The position numbers were made by a program, and so were the translations under genes. Shown piece after piece: positions 702 through 63,237 of a stretch of DNA of 64,000 bases (positions are counted from its first letter, which is position 1; each line of letters starts with the position of its first letter). The notes under the pieces were generated by a model. The model ran no database searches and was not told the origin of the DNA. It saw only the letters and a list, made by a program, of their open reading frames with translations. Source of the stretch: Eledone cirrhosa (Eukaryota); NCBI GenBank assembly GCA_964016885.1, contig CAXHJY010001100.1, positions 124,001 through 188,000 on the forward strand, given 5' to 3'.

Positions 702-806
702 TTGGACGAAATAGAAATCATAAAAATATATATGAAGTTAATTTGAGCATAAAATAACATTATTGTAATTTTCAACTTTTTGTCTTGAAAAATATATCAT
801 GTAGCG

Positions 807-870
<64 letters not shown>

Positions 871-1484: not shown

Positions 1485-1520
<36 letters not shown>

Positions 1521-1524
<4 letters not shown>

Positions 1525-1720
1525 CGGAGGAAATGTGGTAATGAACCAGGTGGACCATAACGCACCAAAGTACTCAATACTTAGGGTAGTAGAGTGGGTA
1601 ATAGGAACGAGTAGGACCCCGACGGCTGAGCTCAAGCCGTTTCGACGGCTAATTCTGGACTCAGAGTCCAGAATTAGCCGTCGAAACGGCTTGAGCTCAG
1701 CCGTCGGGGTCTTACTCGTT

Positions 1721-1725
<5 letters not shown>
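1521..1725. mobile_element. Hairpin element family A with 3' half of a hammerhead
   Basis: 62-bp arms 1601-1662 and 1664-1725 with a 1-nt loop; contains GAAAC-ggct(tgagctc)agcc-GTC; embedded in (TA)n. Confidence 0.75.
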
Positions 1726-1807
<82 letters not shown>

Positions 1808-6989: not shown

Positions 6990-7424
6990 TCACTCTCCCC
7001 CCCACCCCTCTCTCTTTCTGATATCGATTACACCTTTCCAAATAATCCGTTTGCTCTGTTTATATAAATGTTCTTCTTCGTCTGACCCCCCACCCCCTTT
7101 AGATATTGCTCTCCTATCCGCCCCCGCCCCAACTCTTTCTTCTCCTATTCATGATCACCACGATCATGATCATTATGATGATGATGATGATGATGATCAT
7201 CATCATCATCATCCTATCCCGATGTCATCTACAGAGATTCTGGTATCGAAATCCAGGACTTGGTAACGGCAATGAACGAGAGACCCACGTGGAGATCAAT
7301 TGTTGAGTCCATTTCGGCTGAGGCCGTCGGCTGCTGCTGCTGCTGCTGCTGCTGCGGATGATGATGATGATGATGATGATAATGATATACACCACCAATA
7401 ATTGTCATTTCGACATCGAACACA

Positions 7425-8765
7425 ATTTTTATATATACAGTTCTGACAATTTTAATATATAGTGCTGAAAATTTTAATATATACACCGCTGAAAATTTTA
7501 ATATATACACCGCTGAAAATTTTAATATATACACCGCTGAAAATTTCAATATATACACCGCTGAAAATTTTAATATATACACCGCTGAAAATTTCAATAT
7601 ATACACCGCTGAAAATTTCAATATATACACCGCTGAAAATTTCAATATATACACCGCTGAAAATTTCAATATATACACCGCTGAAAATTTTAATATATAC
7701 ACCGCTGAAAATTTTAATATATACACCGCTGAAAATTTTAATATATACACCGCTGAAAATTTCAATATATACACCGCTGAAAATTTTAATATATACACCG
7801 CTGAAAATTTCAATATATACACCGCTGAAAATTTTAATATATACACCGCTGAAAATTTCAATATATACACCGCTGAAAATTTTAATATTTACACCGCTGA
7901 AAATTTCAATATATACAGTGCAGAAAAATTTAATATACTGTATATACTGTTGAAAATGTTAATATATACGCCACTGAATATTTTAATACATACAGTGCTT
8001 ACAATTTTAATATATACACCGCAGACAAATTTAATATATACACCGCTGACAAATTTAATATATATAGTGGTAAAATGTTTTATATTTCTAATATATACAT
8101 CGCTGAAAATGTTAATATATACACCACTGAATATTTTAATATATACAGTGCTTACAATTTTAATATATACACCGCTGACAAATTTAATATATACATCGCT
8201 GACAAATTTAATATATACACCGCTGACAAATTTAATATATACATCGCTGACAAATTTAATATATACACCGCTGACAGATTTAATATATACACCGCTACAA
8301 TTTGAATATATACACCGCTGACAAATTTAATATATACACCGCTGGCAATTTTAATATATACACCGCTGACAATTTTAATATATATAGTACTGACAAATTT
8401 AATGTATATATATCACTGAATATAGACAGCGATGACCATTTTAATATATACACCGCTGACAAATTTAATATATACACTGCTGACAAATTTAATGCATACA
8501 GTGCTGACAAATTTAATATATATATATCTAACAAATTTAATATATACACCGCTGATAAACTTAATATATACAGTGCTGACAAACTTAATATATATATCAT
8601 TGACAAATTTAATATATACACCGCTGAAAATTTTAATATATACACTACTGACAAATTTAATATATACATCACTGAATATAGACAGCGATGACAATTTTAA
8701 TATATACACCGCAGACAAATTTAACATATATATCACTGACAAATTTAATATATACAGTGCTGACA
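7425..8765. repeat. ~24-bp minisatellite (aattttaatatatacaccgctgaa)
   Basis: Homogeneous block 7465-7915, more diverged to the right. Confidence 0.92.
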
Positions 8766-10034
8766 AAACCCCAAGATGACTCATACGATGTAAAAATGTA
8801 TTATAGTTTCATGTCTTCTATTTTTACTCACACCCACACACTGTTAGGGACAGTTTTGTCTTAGGTTTAATGGAACACAGGAAACAAATCATCGACTTAG
8901 GGATAATGTTGATACATTGCAACATTGTAGCCAGTGAAAAGGTTAATTTAAATCAAGTATAGCTAACATTTCTTTTTCATATTGTATTTTTATTATATTT
9001 TATATCCCGGACACAGACATATTGAAATGTCAAATTCATTAGTAATTTTGCCTGGAAATAATCCTACCAATTATATTATCACAACTATGTAAACGAATGT
9101 TGTTGCTTCTACGTTTTTTTTTTTATTTTCCGAATGGTTTGGAAACCATTCATCTGTCTTCTTCAGTGACTGTTAGAGTTGACGCAAATCAGCTAATTTC
9201 GAGTTTGCTCGTCACTGAACAGGGAAAAATGAGAAGATTTGTTCTACATGCTCGCTATTTACTATGTCAACTCAATTACCGTTGAATAAATAAACCAAAT
9301 ATTTAAAATAAATAAATAAGCTGAAAAAAAATTATTAAAAAAGTAGCTGAAAAATTAAATAAATAAATAAATAAATAAATTAAAATGGAGGAACACAAAA
9401 CAAAACAAAACAAAACAATACACAAAATAGAAAAAAACAATAATGAAACCAAATTACTCAGCGTTCTTTAACATTCTGCCTGTGTTCGAAGTCTTTCCGC
9501 TTGATTATACTCGTGCTGGCGTGCTTATTTGAAATATTTTAACACGTCCATTTTAACGTGGCTTACGAAAGTCTAAATTTCTGAGATGAGAGAGGAGAGA
9601 AGAGGAGAGAAGAAAACTTATTAACAAACAAACGAATAAACAAAACAAACACAGAAATAAATAAATAAATAAATATATAAATAAACAAATAAATAAATAA
9701 ACAAATAAATAAACAAATAAATAAATAAATATATAAATAAATAAATATAAAAATAAATAAATGTGTAAATAAACAAAGAACCCCCCCCCCCCGCCAAAAA
9801 AAATGGAAATAACTTCGTTAGAATTAAAAAATAATACATCCTTTGTCATTATAGTAATAACATTTTAAAAAAAATTAAACTGTTTATCTGATAAGGATTT
9901 TTTAAATGATATATTTTTATCATGACTTTCATTTAACTTCTCATAAGCCTATTATCTTATTTATTATCATATGTAGACACTTAATGTTAATGTAAGAATG
10001 GTTTCTTATATAGGCACAAGGCCAGCAATTTTGT

Positions 10035-12032: not shown

Positions 12033-12229
12033 TGTGTGTGTGTGAATGAAGTAATTCCGTCGGAAAAGTCCAGGAAAAAAGAGTGCTCTATGTAGGTAAC
12101 AGGTTTTTAAAATCCAAATTCAATAAACAGACCAGGATTTTTTCATTCTGAGGATTGAAAGCAAAATCTTTTGCTTTTAAGAAACCACTGGTAAATGGAA
12201 TAATTGCCTTATGTTGTTTATTACATAAC

Positions 12230-12260
<31 letters not shown>

Positions 12261-17215: not shown

Positions 17216-17289
17216 ACATTGTACAAATCCCAGACGTACAACAATGACAATTAACGTAAGGGCATTTTAAATTCTCAGCTGATATAATT

Positions 17290-18480
17290 AATTGTTTCTA
17301 CTTTTGGCACAAGGCCAGCAATTACCCCCCAGTGTATTACTGGTACTTTATTTTATCGACCCCCGTAAGGATGAAAGACAAAGTTAACCTCGGCGGGATT
17401 TGAACTCAGATCATAAAGGGCCGTAACTCTGTGCTGCAAAGCATGGCGTCCGGTCGTCTATCGATACTGCCAATCCACCGCCCTATACTCAGAAAGTAAA
17501 GGGCCGTAACTCTGTGCTGAAAAGCATGGCGTCCGACCCGATACCGATACTGCCAATCCACCGCCATATACTCAGAAAGTAAAGGGCCGTAACTCTGTGC
17601 TGCAAAGAATGGCGTCCGGCCGTCTACTGATACTACCAATCCACCGCCATATAATCAGAAAGTAAAGGGCCGTAACTCTGTGCTGCAAAGAATGGCGTCC
17701 GGCCGTCTACCGATACTGCCAAATCCACCGCCATATAATCAGAAAGTAAAGGGCCGAAACTCTGTGCTGCAAAGCATGGCGTCCGACCCGATACCGATAC
17801 TGCCAATCCACCGCCCTATAATCAGAAAGTAAAGGGCCGTAACTCTGTGCTGCAAAGATTGGCGTCCGGCCGTCTACCGATACTGCCAATCCACCGCCAT
17901 ATAATCAGAAAGTAAAGGGCCGTAACTCTGTGCTGCAAAGCATGGCGTCCGACCCGATACCGATACTGCCAATCCACCGCCCTATAATCAGAAAGTAAAG
18001 GGCCGTAACTCTGTGCTGCAAAGAATGGCGTCCGGCCGTCTACCGATACTGCCAAATCCACCGCCATATAATCAGAAAGTAAAGGGCCGTAACTCTGTGC
18101 TGCAAAGCATGGCGTCCGACCCGATACCGATACTGCCAAATCCACCGCCATATAATCAGAAAGTAAAGGGCCGAAACTCTGTGCTGCAAAGCATGGCGTC
18201 CGACCCGATACCGATACTGCCAATCCACCGCCATATACTCAGAAAGTAAAGGGCCGTAACTCTGTGCTGCAAAGAATGGCGTCCGGCCGTCTACTGATAC
18301 TGCCAATCCACCGCCATATAATCAGAAAGTAAAGGGCCGTAACTCTGTGCTGCAAAGAATGGCGTCCGGCCGTCTACCGATACTGCCAAATCCACCGCCC
18401 TATAATCAGAAAGTAAAGGGCCGTAACTCTGTGCTGCAAAGAATGGCGTCCGGCCGTCTACCGATACTGCCAATCCACCT
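17290..18480 (-). mobile_element. Meta-domain tRNA SINE with head amplified into ~13 tandem 83-84-bp units
   Basis: Body atcgacccccgtaaggatgaaagacaaagttaacctcggcgggatttgaactc, then repeated tcagaaagtaaagggccgtaac..ccaatccaccgcc. Confidence 0.88.
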
Positions 18481-21668: not shown

Positions 21669-22061
21669 CGCGCGCGCGCGTGTGTGTGTGTGTGTGTATG
21701 AAAGTATAGCTAGTTCAGAAAGTCAGTGTACACCAATTAAAATTTTTTAATATTTTGGCTTCAAAATAACAGATTTTACACTATTAGACCTAAGAACTGT
21801 TCAATGAAATCTTAAAGGTTGATTAAAGTACATTACAAGAATGTGGCTAATGTATTTCATTGGCTTGTGGCCAAAGAAGGGTGTTGTCTATTAAGTCAAC
21901 TCCAGTGTTTGTCTTAATTAAACGACCTTCACCTCGGTGGGAGTAAAATGATTTATTAAACTAGCAAGATTTGAACCTATATATATATATATTTATATAT
22001 ATATATATATATATATTAATTCAAAATATTAAAAAATATAGACATTCGTGTGATCAAGTAT

Positions 22062-22126
22062 ATTTTATTATACATATTTCAGAGGTACTGAGCTATTTAC
22101 AACAGTACGTGCTCATCAGATAAAAT
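22062..22126 (-). ncRNA. Type I hammerhead ribozyme
   Basis: Minus strand: attttat-CTGATGA-gcacgtactg..cagtacctct-GAAA-tatgta-TA-ataaaat. Perfect 7-bp stem I; stem II core gtactg/cagtac. Confidence 0.8.
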
Positions 22127-22365
22127 GAGATGATGCTTGACATACCTAAACTATGTTGATGCTAAAATTCAGTCATGGCAATTAATATTAATAACTCCAT
22201 AATTAGTTTGCAGCAACAGAAGTCCGACGAGGTTTTGATTCCAGAGTCGGGCTATATCGATACAGATCGAACCTTGAGCTGATCAATAGCGAAACGTGCG
22301 TCACTACTCAATAAACGTAATGAAGACATAACAAATCGTCTTGTTTATTATTATAATTATATATT

Positions 22366-29399: not shown

Positions 29400-29535
29400 C
29401 GGGGTCATACATTTTCCTATATATATATATATATAGGAAAATGTATGACCCCGACGGCAGAGCTCAAGCCGTTTCGGCGTCATAGATTTTCCTATTACAC
29501 ACTCTACTACCCTAAGTATTGAGTACTCTATATTG
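29400..29535. mobile_element. Family A fragments in both orientations
   Basis: cggggtcatacattttcctat-(TA)n-ataggaaaatgtatgaccccgacggcagagctcaagccgtttc..gtattgagtac. Confidence 0.65.
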
Positions 29536-29857: not shown

Positions 29858-30023
29858 ATTCCGGGTTGAATCGGAGGTAACCACAGTAAGTACGGTACTC
29901 AATACATTGCAGAGTATAAAAGTTTTAATATAGATGAGATTCTACAGGACTAGAACTGTTTCATTCTTTAGAAATCATCAGGATTTCTAAAGAATGAAAC
30001 AGTTCTAGTCCTGTAGAATCTCA

Positions 30024-30030
<7 letters not shown>
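29855..30030. mobile_element. Hammerhead fold-back cassette (family B)
   Basis: Minus strand: CTGATGA-tttctaaagaat-GAA-ACAG(ttctagtc)CTGT-A-gaatc at about 29938-29981. Inverted arm 29982-30030; a further partial copy at 29767-29822. Confidence 0.75.
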
Positions 30031-30268: not shown

Positions 30269-30271
<3 letters not shown>

Positions 30272-30748
30272 GATATATTAACAAATGGAAACTATATTTA
30301 TAAAACCATATTTATTTCATTATACATATTTGAAGGACACCAAGTTAAATTATGGTGTGCTTTCATCAGATAAAATATAATATAGATCAGTTTTATAAAT
30401 AAATATTGACATACCCTTAAAGAATGCGACCATTTCTGTTGGAAGCTCCCGGATAGTGGGGTTATCAATTCACTATCCGGGAGCTTCCAACAGAAATGGT
30501 CGCATTCATTAAGGGTATGTCAATATTTATTTATAAAACTGATCTATATTATATTTTATCTGATGAAAGCACACCATAATGTAACTTGGTGTCCTTGAAA
30601 TATGTATAATGAAATAAATATGGTTTTATAAATATAGTTTCCATTTGTTAATATATCGTATTTTTACTCTAATAATTTGTTGAGTGCTTTATATCAGTTA
30701 TAAAAATATTTGTTTGTTGTATCCCAACAATTTAAATAGAACTTCTAC
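30269..30748. mobile_element. Hammerhead fold-back cassette with ~190-bp inverted arms in (TA)n
   Basis: Arms 30269-30458 and 30471-30660 with a 12-nt spacer. The minus-strand hammerhead copy (30314-30376) has GAAA changed to CAAA. Confidence 0.75.
30553..30615 (+). ncRNA. Type I hammerhead ribozyme, complete core
   Basis: attttat-CTGATGA-aagcacacca(taatgtaact)tggtgtcctt-GAAA-tatgta-TA-atgaaat. The stem III region ATATGTAT is one change from the palindrome ATACGTAT. Confidence 0.85.
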
Positions 30749-32099: not shown

Positions 32100-32195
<96 letters not shown>

Positions 32196-32204
32196 CATAT
32201 ATAC

Positions 32205-32310
32205 ATTTAATATAGAAATGGCTTCTACGGGACTTCCTGATGATTTCTCCTGATGATTTCTCCCGAATGAAACAGTTCTAGTCATGTAGAAGCCATTTCT
32301 ATATTAAATA
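32205..32310 (+). mobile_element. Hammerhead fold-back cassette (family B variant)
   Basis: gacttc-CTGATGA (duplicated at 32237 and 32250)..GAAACAGttctagtcATGTA-gaagcc; inverted arms about 32205-32234 and 32280-32310. Confidence 0.7.
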
Positions 32311-36236: not shown

Positions 36237-36685
<449 letters not shown>

Positions 36686-36923
36686 TTCCTTGACCTCCTG
36701 CCCTGCTGGGTTTCCTCACACGACTGGGTTTCCTCCACCCCCTCTCCCTCTTTCTTCTACTGGCAGGTTCAGCTACCCCTTCCTTCCACAAATTGCCATG
36801 ATAGAATTATGTGTCTCAACAACAGACTTTTGACCAATCCTTGTGACAATCACTTTTACCATATATGGAATTACTCCCTGAGAAACTCGGCTATTCATAT
36901 ACCAGGATAAAAATGTTCATTTA

Positions 36924-36983
36924 GTCCAGAATTAGCCGTCGAAACGGCTTGAGCTCAGCCGTCGGGGTCTTACTCGTTCCTAT
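36924..36983 (+). mobile_element. Family A solo short arm
   Basis: gtccagaattagccgtcgaaacggcttgagctcagccgtcggggtcttactcgttcctat, then (TA)n. Confidence 0.7.
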
Positions 36984-37139
36984 ATATATATATATATTAT
37001 TATTATTATGTAATAAACAACATAAGGCAATTATTCCATTTACCAGTGGTTGTTTATTACATAATAATAATAATTAAGCTCTGTTGCCTACATAGAGCAC
37101 TCTTTTTTCCTGGACTTTTCCGACGGAATTACTTCATTT

Positions 37140-37237
<98 letters not shown>

Positions 37238-60724: not shown

Positions 60725-61665
60725 AGAGTTAGAGAGGTGGTAAGGAGAGCTACAGAAGATGAGAGCTCCAGATATAGAGAGGTTGTAAGAAGGAGAGCTC
60801 TAGAGATAGAGAGGTGGTGAGAAGGAGAGCTCCAGAGATAGAGAGGTGGTGAGGAGGAGAGCTCAAGATATAGAGAGGTGGTGAGAAGGAGAGCTCCAGA
60901 GATAGAGAGGTGGTGAGGAGGAGAGCTCAAGATATAGAGAGGTGGTGAGAAGGAGAGCTCCAGAGATAGAGAGGTGGTGAGGAGGAGAGCTCAAGATATA
61001 GAGAGGTGGTGAGAAGGAGAGCTCTAGAGATAAAGAGGTGGTGAGAAGGAGAGCTCCAGATATAGAAAGGTGATGAGAAGGAGAGCTCCACAGATAGAGA
61101 GGTGGTGAGAAGGAGAACTCCACAGATAGAGAGGTGGTGAGAAGGAGAGCTCTAGAGATAGAAAGGTGATGAGAAGGAGAGCTCCACAGATAGAGAGGTG
61201 GTGAGAAGGAGAGCTCCAGATATAGAAAGGTGATGAGAAGGAGAGCTCCACAGATAGAGAGGTGGTGAGAAGGAGAACTCCACAGATAGAGAGGTGGTGA
61301 GAAGGAGAGCTCCAGATATAGAAAGGTGGTGAGAAGAAGAGCTCCAGAGATAGAGAGGTGGTGAGAAGGAGAACTCCACAGATAGAGAGGTGGTGAGAAG
61401 GAGAGCTCCAGATATAGAAAGGTGATGAGAAGGAGAGCTCCACAGATAGAGAGGTGGTGAGAAGGAGAGCTCCAGATATAGAAAGGTGATGAGAAGGAGA
61501 GCTCCACAGATAGAGAGGTGGTGAGAAGGAGAACTCCACAGATAGAGAGGTGGTGAGAAGGAGAGCTCCAGATATAGAAAGGTGATGAGAAGGAGAGCTC
61601 CACAGATAGAGAGGTGGTGAGAAGGAGAACTCCACAGATAGAGAGGTGGTGAGAAGGAGAGCTAC
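60725..61665. repeat. 32-bp purine-rich minisatellite
   Basis: gctccagagatagagaggtggtgagaaggaga repeated. Confidence 0.92.
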
Positions 61666-63071: not shown

Positions 63072-63234
63072 ATAACGAAGGAAATGTGGTAAGGAACCAG
63101 GTGGACCATAACGCACCAAAGTACTCAATACTTAGGGTAGTAGAGTGGGTAATAGGAACAAGTATGACCCCGACGGCAGAGCTCAAGCCGTTTCGACGGC
63201 TAATACTGGGCCGAGTCGGGGTCATACTTGTTCC

Positions 63235-63237
<3 letters not shown>
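63072..63237. mobile_element. Hairpin element family A with short inverted arm
   Basis: The inverted arm begins at gtc-gggg (63215), the predicted cleavage triplet. Confidence 0.72.

What the first reader, a model, noticed from the sequence alone, without database searches (positions are those of the whole stretch)
1521..1725. Family A: recurring near-perfect hairpin whose apex falls inside the ribozyme
Seven loci (1521, 29400, 36924, 51246, 51480, 52202, 63072) share GAAAC-GGCT(tGAGCTC)AGCC-GTC with a palindromic loop but lack CUGANGA. In three copies the fold-back apex lies at almost the same position with a 1-2 nt loop (ggactc-a-gagtcc, ggaca-g-tgtcc, ggactc-ca-gagtcc). Inference: reverse transcription repeatedly stalls in stem II and snaps back on the nascent cDNA, or a hairpin master copy is itself mobile.
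Basis: partly seen in the sequence, partly recalled or inferred. Interest (0 to 1): 0.75.

Follow-up and report, generated by a model that had tools for sequence, protein, structure and literature searches.

The report
Retrotransposon hairpins marking the transcription start
These hairpins are short, head-to-head insertions of a Penelope-like retrotransposon, present in thousands of copies, whose fold point likely marks the capped start of the element's RNA inside its hammerhead ribozyme motif, which would help explain how this class of elements makes its inverted ends.

Summary
The hairpins are real but are not a separate element. They are truncated insertions of a Hydra-clade Penelope-like retrotransposon (RT plus C-terminal GIY-YIG) in (TA)n, with at least 9,567 short hairpins in the genome. 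The ribozyme's 5' half exists in longer copies, one in the window (36685-36983). It reads UUGANAA (U3-A8) or CUGAGAA (C3-A8), not CUGANGA. Apexes differ between insertions (34 middles in 40) while arms share subfamily alleles (50 of 50), so hairpins form at insertion. Arm 5' ends stop at a sharp edge: 59 of 160 at -4..+2, none at -10..-5. The edge lies on initiator-like TCATT/T(C/T)AGTC; a sister family keeps the motif and the edge. A non-parental G often precedes it, on both arms at once. The likely mechanism is two cDNAs, primed from both target strands at two internal sites, running off the capped 5' end and joined. Stall and snap-back fit less well: the untailed arm is often the longer. 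Start site, cap and cleavage are untested; no RNA data. The parts have precedent; tying the apex to the start site was not found in print.

The parts
1490..1520 (.). (TA)n target, tail side
   Evidence: 90 of 92 tailed copies run into a TA run
1521..1600 (-). 80-nt 'tail' (element positions about +62 to +141 plus a terminal TAT shared with the target). In the parent it lies between the pLTR and the ORF start.
   Evidence: L077:1967-2046 continues into the ORF ATG at 2136
1601..1661 (-). tailed (direct) arm, +1 to +61: 3' strand of stem II, GAAAC (1643-1639), stem III with palindromic GAGCTC loop, predicted GUC cleavage triplet (1623-1621), 3' strand of stem I, CCTAT
1662..1664 (.). apex: a non-parental G before +1 on each arm (1662 on the minus strand, 1664 on the plus strand), likely copied from the RNA cap, around one middle base (1663)
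   Evidence: parents have T or C at -1; 566 arms with the extra base against 185 with the other non-parental base
1665..1725 (+). untailed (inverted) arm, +1 to +61, ending at CCTAT, the second 3' end of the element
   Evidence: 64 of 68 inverted arms abut a TA run
1726..1793 (.). (TA)n target, untailed side
29400..29530 (+). fragmentary copies: untailed arm remnant, (TA)n, inverted arm, then a short direct arm with part of the tail
36685..36983 (+). single untailed long arm (3' UTR/pLTR) with the whole hammerhead motif: stem I 36873-36877, core CTGAGAA 36878-36884 (C3-A8), stem II 5' strand 36888-36893, initiator-like A at 36919 (-4) and 36923 (+1), GAAAC 36941-36945, GUC 36961-36963
   Evidence: 80-82% identical over 265 nt to the pLTRs of the ORF-bearing copy L078
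51246..51447 (-). family A hairpin, tail 51246-51324, perfect 61-nt arms, 1-nt middle at 51386
51480..51684 (+). sister family B hairpin: inverted arm, apex near 51540 at the TTAGTT register, direct arm and tail
52202..52407 (-). family A hairpin, extra G on both arms, 2-nt middle
63072..63237 (-). family A copy: tail, full direct arm, short inverted arm (63215-63237)

Best explanation
The hairpins are short head-to-head insertions of a Hydra-clade Penelope-like retrotransposon into (TA)n, and their apex likely marks the capped 5' end of the element's RNA, which two cDNAs would copy before being joined. Shown: the parent has pLTR, tail, then one ORF with RT and C-terminal GIY-YIG; copies end at two fixed 3' points (+61 and the tail end, both at TAT) and start at a sharp edge (-4 and +1, numbering from the A of AGTCC) in the loop of hammerhead stem II. 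Inferred: the pLTR promoter starts at those two A's (TCATT and T(C/T)AGTC); the protein binds near the tail and ORF start, so on the 5' pLTR it primes only 60-140 nt from the cap; the endonuclease cuts both strands of (TA)n; one 3' end primes at the tail end and the other at +61 on the same RNA; both cDNAs run off the cap, often gaining a C and A's; their 3' ends are joined by template jump or end joining, with variable trimming. Longer copies with the whole ribozyme would come from priming at a downstream pLTR. Odds by step: identity 0.95, apex = start site 0.75, twin priming 0.6.
For: Parent anatomy and motifs. Edge: 59 of 160 arm ends at -4..+2, 0 at -10..-5, 11 further upstream. Independent contigs show loose ends before L077:1902 (-4) and 1906 (+1) and TA runs behind 1966 and 2046. 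Motifs at the edge match INR TCAGTY and INR1 TCATTCG as given for Drosophila (PMC4079975). Family B keeps TTAGTT at the same register with an unrelated loop upstream, and its longer arm ends at -2..+2 in 41 of 50 hairpins (hand count). Extra base: 566 arms against 185, on both arms in 36 of 64 hairpins where 5% is expected (hand count; for the expectation); extra G marks capped full-length L1 junctions (PMC11702581). Either arm can be longer: 12 and 10 of 68; 292 exact cases with a full untailed arm and a cut tailed arm in one subfamily. In family B the 1-nt middle occurs in both orientations, 4 and 3 of 9. A purified PLE protein cuts and extends both strands and starts at two internal RNA sites that bound the tail (PMC11167929).
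Against: No RNA evidence for a start site or cap. The initiator consensus is from Drosophila, is short and AT-rich, and no RGWY-type DPE (consensus recalled) stands at +28..+32; a TATA-like word near -29..-31 is seen in family A but not in B. The extra base is on only about 10% of arms (566 of 5,652) and was not evident as a class in family B (2-3 of 50); RTs add untemplated bases without a cap. Arm identity and the paired extra G fit one arm being copied from the other as well as two copies of one RNA. Deletion at palindrome centres after insertion could create the longer-untailed-arm cases. In the family A double-G class the middle base is T in tail sense in 14 of 17 and never A (mostly a query-biased set), which a symmetric join does not predict. 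Snap-back after full-length cDNA is documented for R2 (PMC11371274).
Confidence: 0.62

Rival explanations
1. The RNA 5' end is the start site, but the inverted arm is made by snap-back: one tail-primed cDNA runs off the cap, folds on itself and is extended back to CCTAT, where it anneals to the TA target.
For: Arms were identical at insertion; the paired extra G (36 of 64) and the fixed middle base (14 of 17) fit copying; some junctions have 3-4 nt microhomology with a loop (6 of 50 of one type); snap-back after full-length cDNA occurs with R2.
Against: Perfect palindromes with 0-2 nt middles cannot prime in cis; the untailed arm is longer in 12 of 68 and in L054, L069, L165 holds sequence absent from the tailed arm; untailed arms also occur alone (window 36685-36983), so +61 is a 3' end in its own right.
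Confidence: 0.2
2. One reading: RT stalls in ribozyme stem II and snaps back on the nascent cDNA.
For: The apex lies within stem II (positions -33 to +16); an inner helix can be drawn at -3..+5 in some subfamilies.
Against: RT has already passed stems I, III and the strong part of II before the edge; stalls are expected at the 3' foot of a helix (established behaviour, recalled), not beyond it. The edge follows the TTAGTY motif in family B, whose loop sequence is unrelated. The same objections to snap-back apply.
Confidence: 0.06
3. The 5' edge is an RNA processing site (a nuclease cut in the loop of stem II), not a transcription start; cDNAs run off an uncapped end and the extra base is plain terminal addition.
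For: No RNA data exclude it; the site is in a predicted loop; A-runs of variable length show terminal addition or slippage.
Against: Two edges both fall on the A of initiator-type words; C is favoured over T as the added base (566 to 185, and most T cases are the partner's T run). The ribozyme's own cut site (+42) is not a main 5' end: 3 of the first 100.
Confidence: 0.07
4. A preformed hairpin is itself the mobile unit (master copy, MITE-like or self-primed on an antisense template as proposed for Adineta PLEs).
For: One apex recurs (15 of 36 double-G hairpins) with fixed orientation; head-to-head palindromes were read as antisense self-priming in PMC3846280.
Against: 34 middles in 40 hairpins, and repeated middles occur on different subfamily backgrounds; no terminal inverted repeats, since the tail lies outside the repeat; short copies lack the ORF start that PAc needs; antisense priming does not predict an edge with an extra G.
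Confidence: 0.05

Closest known systems
Hydra clade of Penelope-like elements (Craig et al. 2021, PMC8557442; e.g. Hydra-1_Obim, Hydra-1_Amil, Penelope-13_HM)
   Same: Single ORF with RT and C-terminal GIY-YIG, DKT, RW(K/R), CxCX5C linker, no CCHH, CxxC, (TA)n target, pLTR with hammerhead, inverted 5'-truncated copy (noted for Penelope-13_HM), tail.
   Different: Core U3-A8 or C3-A8 with a stem II loop of about 35 nt, where all Hydra motifs listed in their file S2 have CUGANGA; unit about 3.5 kb, not under 3 kb; tail 80 nt, not 30-40; CxQ instead of CxH; copies dominated by 60+140 nt hairpins.
U3-A8 minimal hammerheads of Schistosoma mansoni Cercyon PLEs (Cervera and de la Pena 2014, PMC4209133)
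   Same: The same core covariation, in PLE repeats, about 1,300 hits; some motifs in close opposite-strand pairs.
   Different: Different PLE family and host; those are minimal motifs, while this one has a 6-bp stem III with a palindromic loop; no link to a start site or apex was made.
Poseidon PAc of Anolis in vitro (Frangieh et al. 2024, PMC11167929)
   Same: Both target strands cut and extended; two internal RT start sites bound the tail; ribozyme cleavage not needed for insertion.
   Different: PAc starts at RNA sites without homology to the target, whereas both ends here are at TAT; the paper does not resolve the 5' junction or inverted arms.
L1 twin priming and cap-derived extra G (passages in PMC11702581); R2 snap-back (PMC11371274)
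   Same: Second priming from the other target end gives an inverted segment; extra G at full-length 5' junctions.
   Different: In L1 the two segments are adjacent with 1-10 bp overlap or gap; here they overlap fully, start at a fixed internal site and both reach the RNA 5' end.

Membership tests
Penelope-like element, Hydra clade | Single ORF, RT with C-terminal GIY-YIG endonuclease | tested here: met
   L077 and L078 give RT (YRDDGL) and VIY..YIG in one frame order; both copies read are broken. 632 homologues at E<=1e-20, best 37-55% identical, unnamed; Pfam scan gave 0 families.
Penelope-like element, Hydra clade | DKT in place of DKG; RWK motif | tested here: met
   SDKTG and RLRWR (R for K) in L077; definition from section 11 of PMC8557442.
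Penelope-like element, Hydra clade | CxCX5C linker, no CCHH in the endonuclease, CxxC and CxH near the end | tested here: met
   CNCPDRSSC; one Cys only inside the GIY-YIG core; CNLC present; CxH reads CKQ in both L078 units, a deviation.
Penelope-like element, Hydra clade | Insertion into (TA)n | tested here: met
   90 of 92 tail ends and 64 of 68 inverted-arm ends abut TA runs.
Penelope-like element, Hydra clade | pLTRs, partial tandems, inverted truncated copy, tail | tested here: met
   L078 has pLTR-tail-ORF-pLTR-tail; L163 tandem; 68 of 92 with an adjacent inverted arm. Tail is 80 nt.
Penelope-like element, Hydra clade | Canonical hammerhead (CUGANGA) in the pLTR | tested here: not met
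   First 100 of 1,580 full motifs: U3-A8 65, C3-A8 35, G8 none (hand count). A hammerhead motif is present but is a variant.
Penelope-like element, Hydra clade | Generally under 3 kb | tested here: not met
   Tail end to tail end about 3.5 kb in L078, owing to a long 3' UTR; the paper gives this as a tendency.
Penelope-like element, Hydra clade | Placement in the RT tree | not tested
   No tree built. By eye the RT matches Hydra-1_Amil and Hydra-2_Amil in the supplement and not the Naiad entries.
Type I hammerhead ribozyme | Three stems around the core, GAAA, NUH triplet | tested here: met
   Stem I 5 bp, G10.1-C11.1, stem II 6 bp (A) or 9 bp (B) with changes on both sides between families, stem III, GUC. 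The fold is 5.2 kcal/mol above the minimum-energy fold; free folding gave z -1.2 and -0.8; no Rfam hammerhead match.
Type I hammerhead ribozyme | Pair between positions 3 and 8 | tested here: inconclusive
   Family B first 100 of 107: U-A 93, U-G 6, C-G 1, C-A 0 (hand count; the pattern allowed only Y and R). Family A: 35 of 100 are C-A mismatches.
Type I hammerhead ribozyme | Self-cleavage | not testable with these tools
   5' ends at the predicted cut (+42) are rare, 3 of the first 100 of 292.
MITE / DNA transposon | Terminal inverted repeats and target duplication | tested here: not met
   The inverted repeat covers one end only; the 80-nt tail is outside it. Duplications cannot be read inside (TA)n.
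Naiad/Chlamys PLE | N-terminal endonuclease, DKA motif | tested here: not met
   Endonuclease is C-terminal, motif is DKT.

The most novel reading that the evidence does not exclude
About ten thousand genomic hairpins are frozen records of the Penelope-type insertion reaction: both cut target strands prime on one sense RNA at two internal sites, both cDNAs run off the cap, and the ends are joined. The ribozyme's stem II loop doubles as the core promoter, so the mRNA starts with half a ribozyme, and a C3-A8 lineage that should not cleave has spread anyway. This would replace antisense self-priming as the explanation of head-to-head PLE palindromes.
Probability: 0.5. Interest if true: 0.68.

Novelty: new variant of a known kind. 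Interest (0 to 1): 0.52.

Why it matters
How Penelope-like elements make their inverted repeats and tails is named as open in PMC3846280 and PMC8557442, and the one in vitro system (PMC11167929) stops short of the 5' junction. This family supplies thousands of natural junctions with a sharp edge and a cap-like extra base, which give base-level predictions (start sites at -4 and +1, two primings, either arm longer). It also shows why CUGANGA searches miss PLE ribozymes, and that such hairpins should be annotated as retrotransposon debris rather than MITEs or microRNA precursors.

Tried and rejected
Rfam on the whole window gave 283 matches at E<=1; the 150 shown were almost all microRNA models on TA/CA repeats, below gathering score, none a hammerhead; Rfam on the full motif gave one chance snoRNA. 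Search for CTGANGA parents: 16 hits, none a true parent. Pfam on two ORF pieces: 0 families. My first guess of Naiad was dropped on domain order. The first junction parser over-extended through microhomology and was replaced. A peak of 5' ends at the cleavage site, suggested by a few copies, did not hold. RNA runs: no RNA holder listed; the two runs laid were contigs, which cannot show starts, and their depths were not used. Free folding did not return the hammerhead fold. Earlier findings of the scan: nothing. The figure 37/63 printed was a miscount; the recount is 36 of 64 (note). Host group was not determined.

Full report
Observation. The window is G000:C1127:124001-188000 of a 3.0-Gb, microsatellite-rich genome. 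All seven loci carry GAAACGGCT and the three apexes are as quoted. Four loci are long hairpins (1521, 51246, 52202, and 51480 of a sister family B); 63072 and 29400 are partial; 36924 is the end of a single long arm. Read on the minus strand, the 1521 copy is (TA)n, an untailed inverted arm, a 3-nt apex, a direct arm, an 80-nt tail, (TA)n. I number from the A of AGTCC (+1); the predicted cleavage site is +41/+42 and CCTAT ends at +61.

Parent element. Copies picked by the tail alone led to long parents. In L077 the tail runs on into an ORF; in L078 the order is pLTR, tail, ORF, 3' UTR, pLTR, tail, about 3.5 kb per unit. The ORF has RT then GIY-YIG, with DKT, RWR, CxCX5C, CxxC and no CCHH, which are the marks of the Hydra clade in section 11 of PMC8557442. 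By eye the RT matches the Hydra proteins in that paper's supplement. A homologue search gave 632 unnamed proteins at E<=1e-20 that share these motifs in the 8 aligned. Both ORF copies I read are broken, and no tree was built.

Ribozyme. CTGANGA upstream gave 16 hits, none a parent. The real 5' half gave 1,580 exact hits; of the first 100, 65 read UUGANAA and 35 CUGANAA, none G8 (hand count). U3-A8 was reported in Schistosoma PLEs (PMC4209133). Family B has 107 full motifs, with a pairable 3-8 position in 100 of the first 100 and stem II changed on both sides relative to family A. So the motif is a type I hammerhead variant by anatomy. Free folding and Rfam do not recover it, the drawn fold is 5.2 kcal/mol above the minimum, and cleavage is untested. 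The C3-A8 third of family A, which includes the window's 36878 copy, would be expected not to cleave; that fits cleavage being dispensable for insertion in vitro.

Abundance and sample. Exact-match lower bounds: 13,375 tail junctions, 9,567 hairpins with the apex within 30 nt, 2,826 with both arms reaching +1. For an apex-blind sample I took 92 of the first 100 places (the last 8 were not fetched; 94 hits less 2 duplicates). The parser found an adjacent inverted arm in 68 of 92; it missed at least two seen by eye and any arm far upstream.

Hairpins form at insertion. Middles are heterogeneous: 34 distinct in 40 and 32 in 50 (hand count), and repeated middles sit on different subfamily backgrounds. 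In the 50 hairpins long enough to compare, arms agree at +48 in 50 (chance 21) and at +53 in 46 (chance 22); no shuffle of 10,000 matched as well; rare alleles are on one arm in 45 cases and on both in 4. Arms were thus identical at birth and have not been homogenised since. One copy (L127) has arms from different subfamilies.

The apex is an edge. Of 160 arm 5' ends, 59 lie at -4..+2, none at -10..-5, 36 at +3..+8, 54 further downstream and 11 upstream of -10. Contigs from an independent run show loose ends before -4 and +1 and TA runs behind +61 and the tail end. The two A's are those of TCATT and T(C/T)AGTC, matching INR1 and INR as given in PMC4079975. Family B keeps TTAGTT with its A the same 15 nt before GTCGAAAC, although its loop is unrelated; of 50 of its 560 hairpins the longer arm ends at -2..+2 in 41, is shorter in 8 and longer in 1 (hand count). 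Parents have T or C at -1, yet 566 arms carry G there against 185 with A, most of the latter being the partner's T run. The G is on both arms in 36 of 64 hairpins, where independence gives 5%. An extra G marks capped full-length L1 junctions, and Penelope's promoter with an initiator lies in the pLTR (PMC2377424). I infer a capped start site. Against this: no RNA data, a Drosophila consensus, no DPE of the recalled type, only 10% of arms with the G, and little of it in family B.

How the inverted arm is made. The untailed arm is longer by 10 nt or more in 16 of 68; dropping 4 explained by internal deletion or microhomology leaves 12, against 10 with the tailed arm longer. There are 292 exact cases of a full untailed arm with a cut tailed arm in one subfamily. 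Many junctions are perfect palindromes with 0-2 nt middles, A-runs of unequal length, or templated inserts. Snap-back on a tail-primed cDNA predicts a loop and a tailed arm that is never shorter. Two primings fit better and agree with PAc, which extends both strands from two internal sites bounding the tail. Later deletion at palindrome centres could blur this, the paired G also fits copying, and the middle base of the double-G class is T in tail sense in 14 of 17 (biased set), which suggests an ordered template jump or a share of snap-back. In family B both orientations occur (4 and 3 of 9).

Prior work and novelty. Inverted truncated copies, tails, (TA)n targeting and U3-A8 are all published. 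Head-to-head palindromes were read as self-priming on an antisense template and left open (PMC3846280). Searches of the open-access library found no paper tying PLE inverted junctions to the start site, a cap base or twin priming; subscription papers were not searched. What I saw: PMC8557442 passages, section 11, supplement part 2 of 59 and supplement search passages; PMC11167929 and PMC4209133 parts 1-2 of 4; passages only of PMC2377424, PMC3846280, PMC11702581, PMC11371274, PMC4079975. Supplements of the other papers were not read and may bear on the junction claim.

Verdict. A new variant of a known kind: a Hydra-clade PLE with a non-canonical hammerhead whose commonest products are short hairpins. 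Identity is firm; the start-site reading is likely; twin priming is the better of two live mechanisms. Interest 0.52, because the data make an open mechanistic question directly testable.

Noticed in passing
window 29872-30030 and 32170-32290: Another tailed hairpin family in (TA)n with canonical CTGATGA; at 29981 the apex falls at the start of the core itself.
   Followed up: no
window 30270-30700, 46910-47190, 22000-22160: Inverted or single copies of further families with CTGATGA and long stems; 30270-30700 has a near-perfect palindrome of about 400 nt.
   Followed up: no
window 12040-12230 and 37010-37140: A further TA-flanked family; one copy has CTGAGGA, the other forms a hairpin right next to the 36685-36983 copy.
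   Followed up: no
window 702-812 and 973-1083: Two identical 111-nt arms in inverted orientation across a TA/CA run, tail to tail.
   Followed up: no
L163 (G000:C1:27005826-27010350): Head-to-tail 257-nt units, each starting at the +1 edge and ending about 25 nt into the ORF: looks like repeated template jumps from the RNA 5' end.
   Followed up: partly
L113: Hairpin whose inverted arm is the tail itself, so both ends are tailed: 1 of 92.
   Followed up: no
window 17280-18479 and about 20 other places: An abundant 200-nt repeat family with direct and inverted copies, and an 83-nt tandem array grown from its end.
   Followed up: no
window 7385-8767, 60763-61600: Tandem arrays: a GC-richer minisatellite, and a 32-nt unit holding GAGCTC that is unrelated to the hairpins.
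   Followed up: no
window 36343-36633: TA-flanked fragment also seen in L048 and L077, where it translates as the end of a LINE-type RT (RTE-like by recall).
   Followed up: no
L032, L036, L039, L040, L045: Family A arms joined at their 5' edge directly to the hammerhead region of other families, i.e. chimeric insertions.
   Followed up: partly
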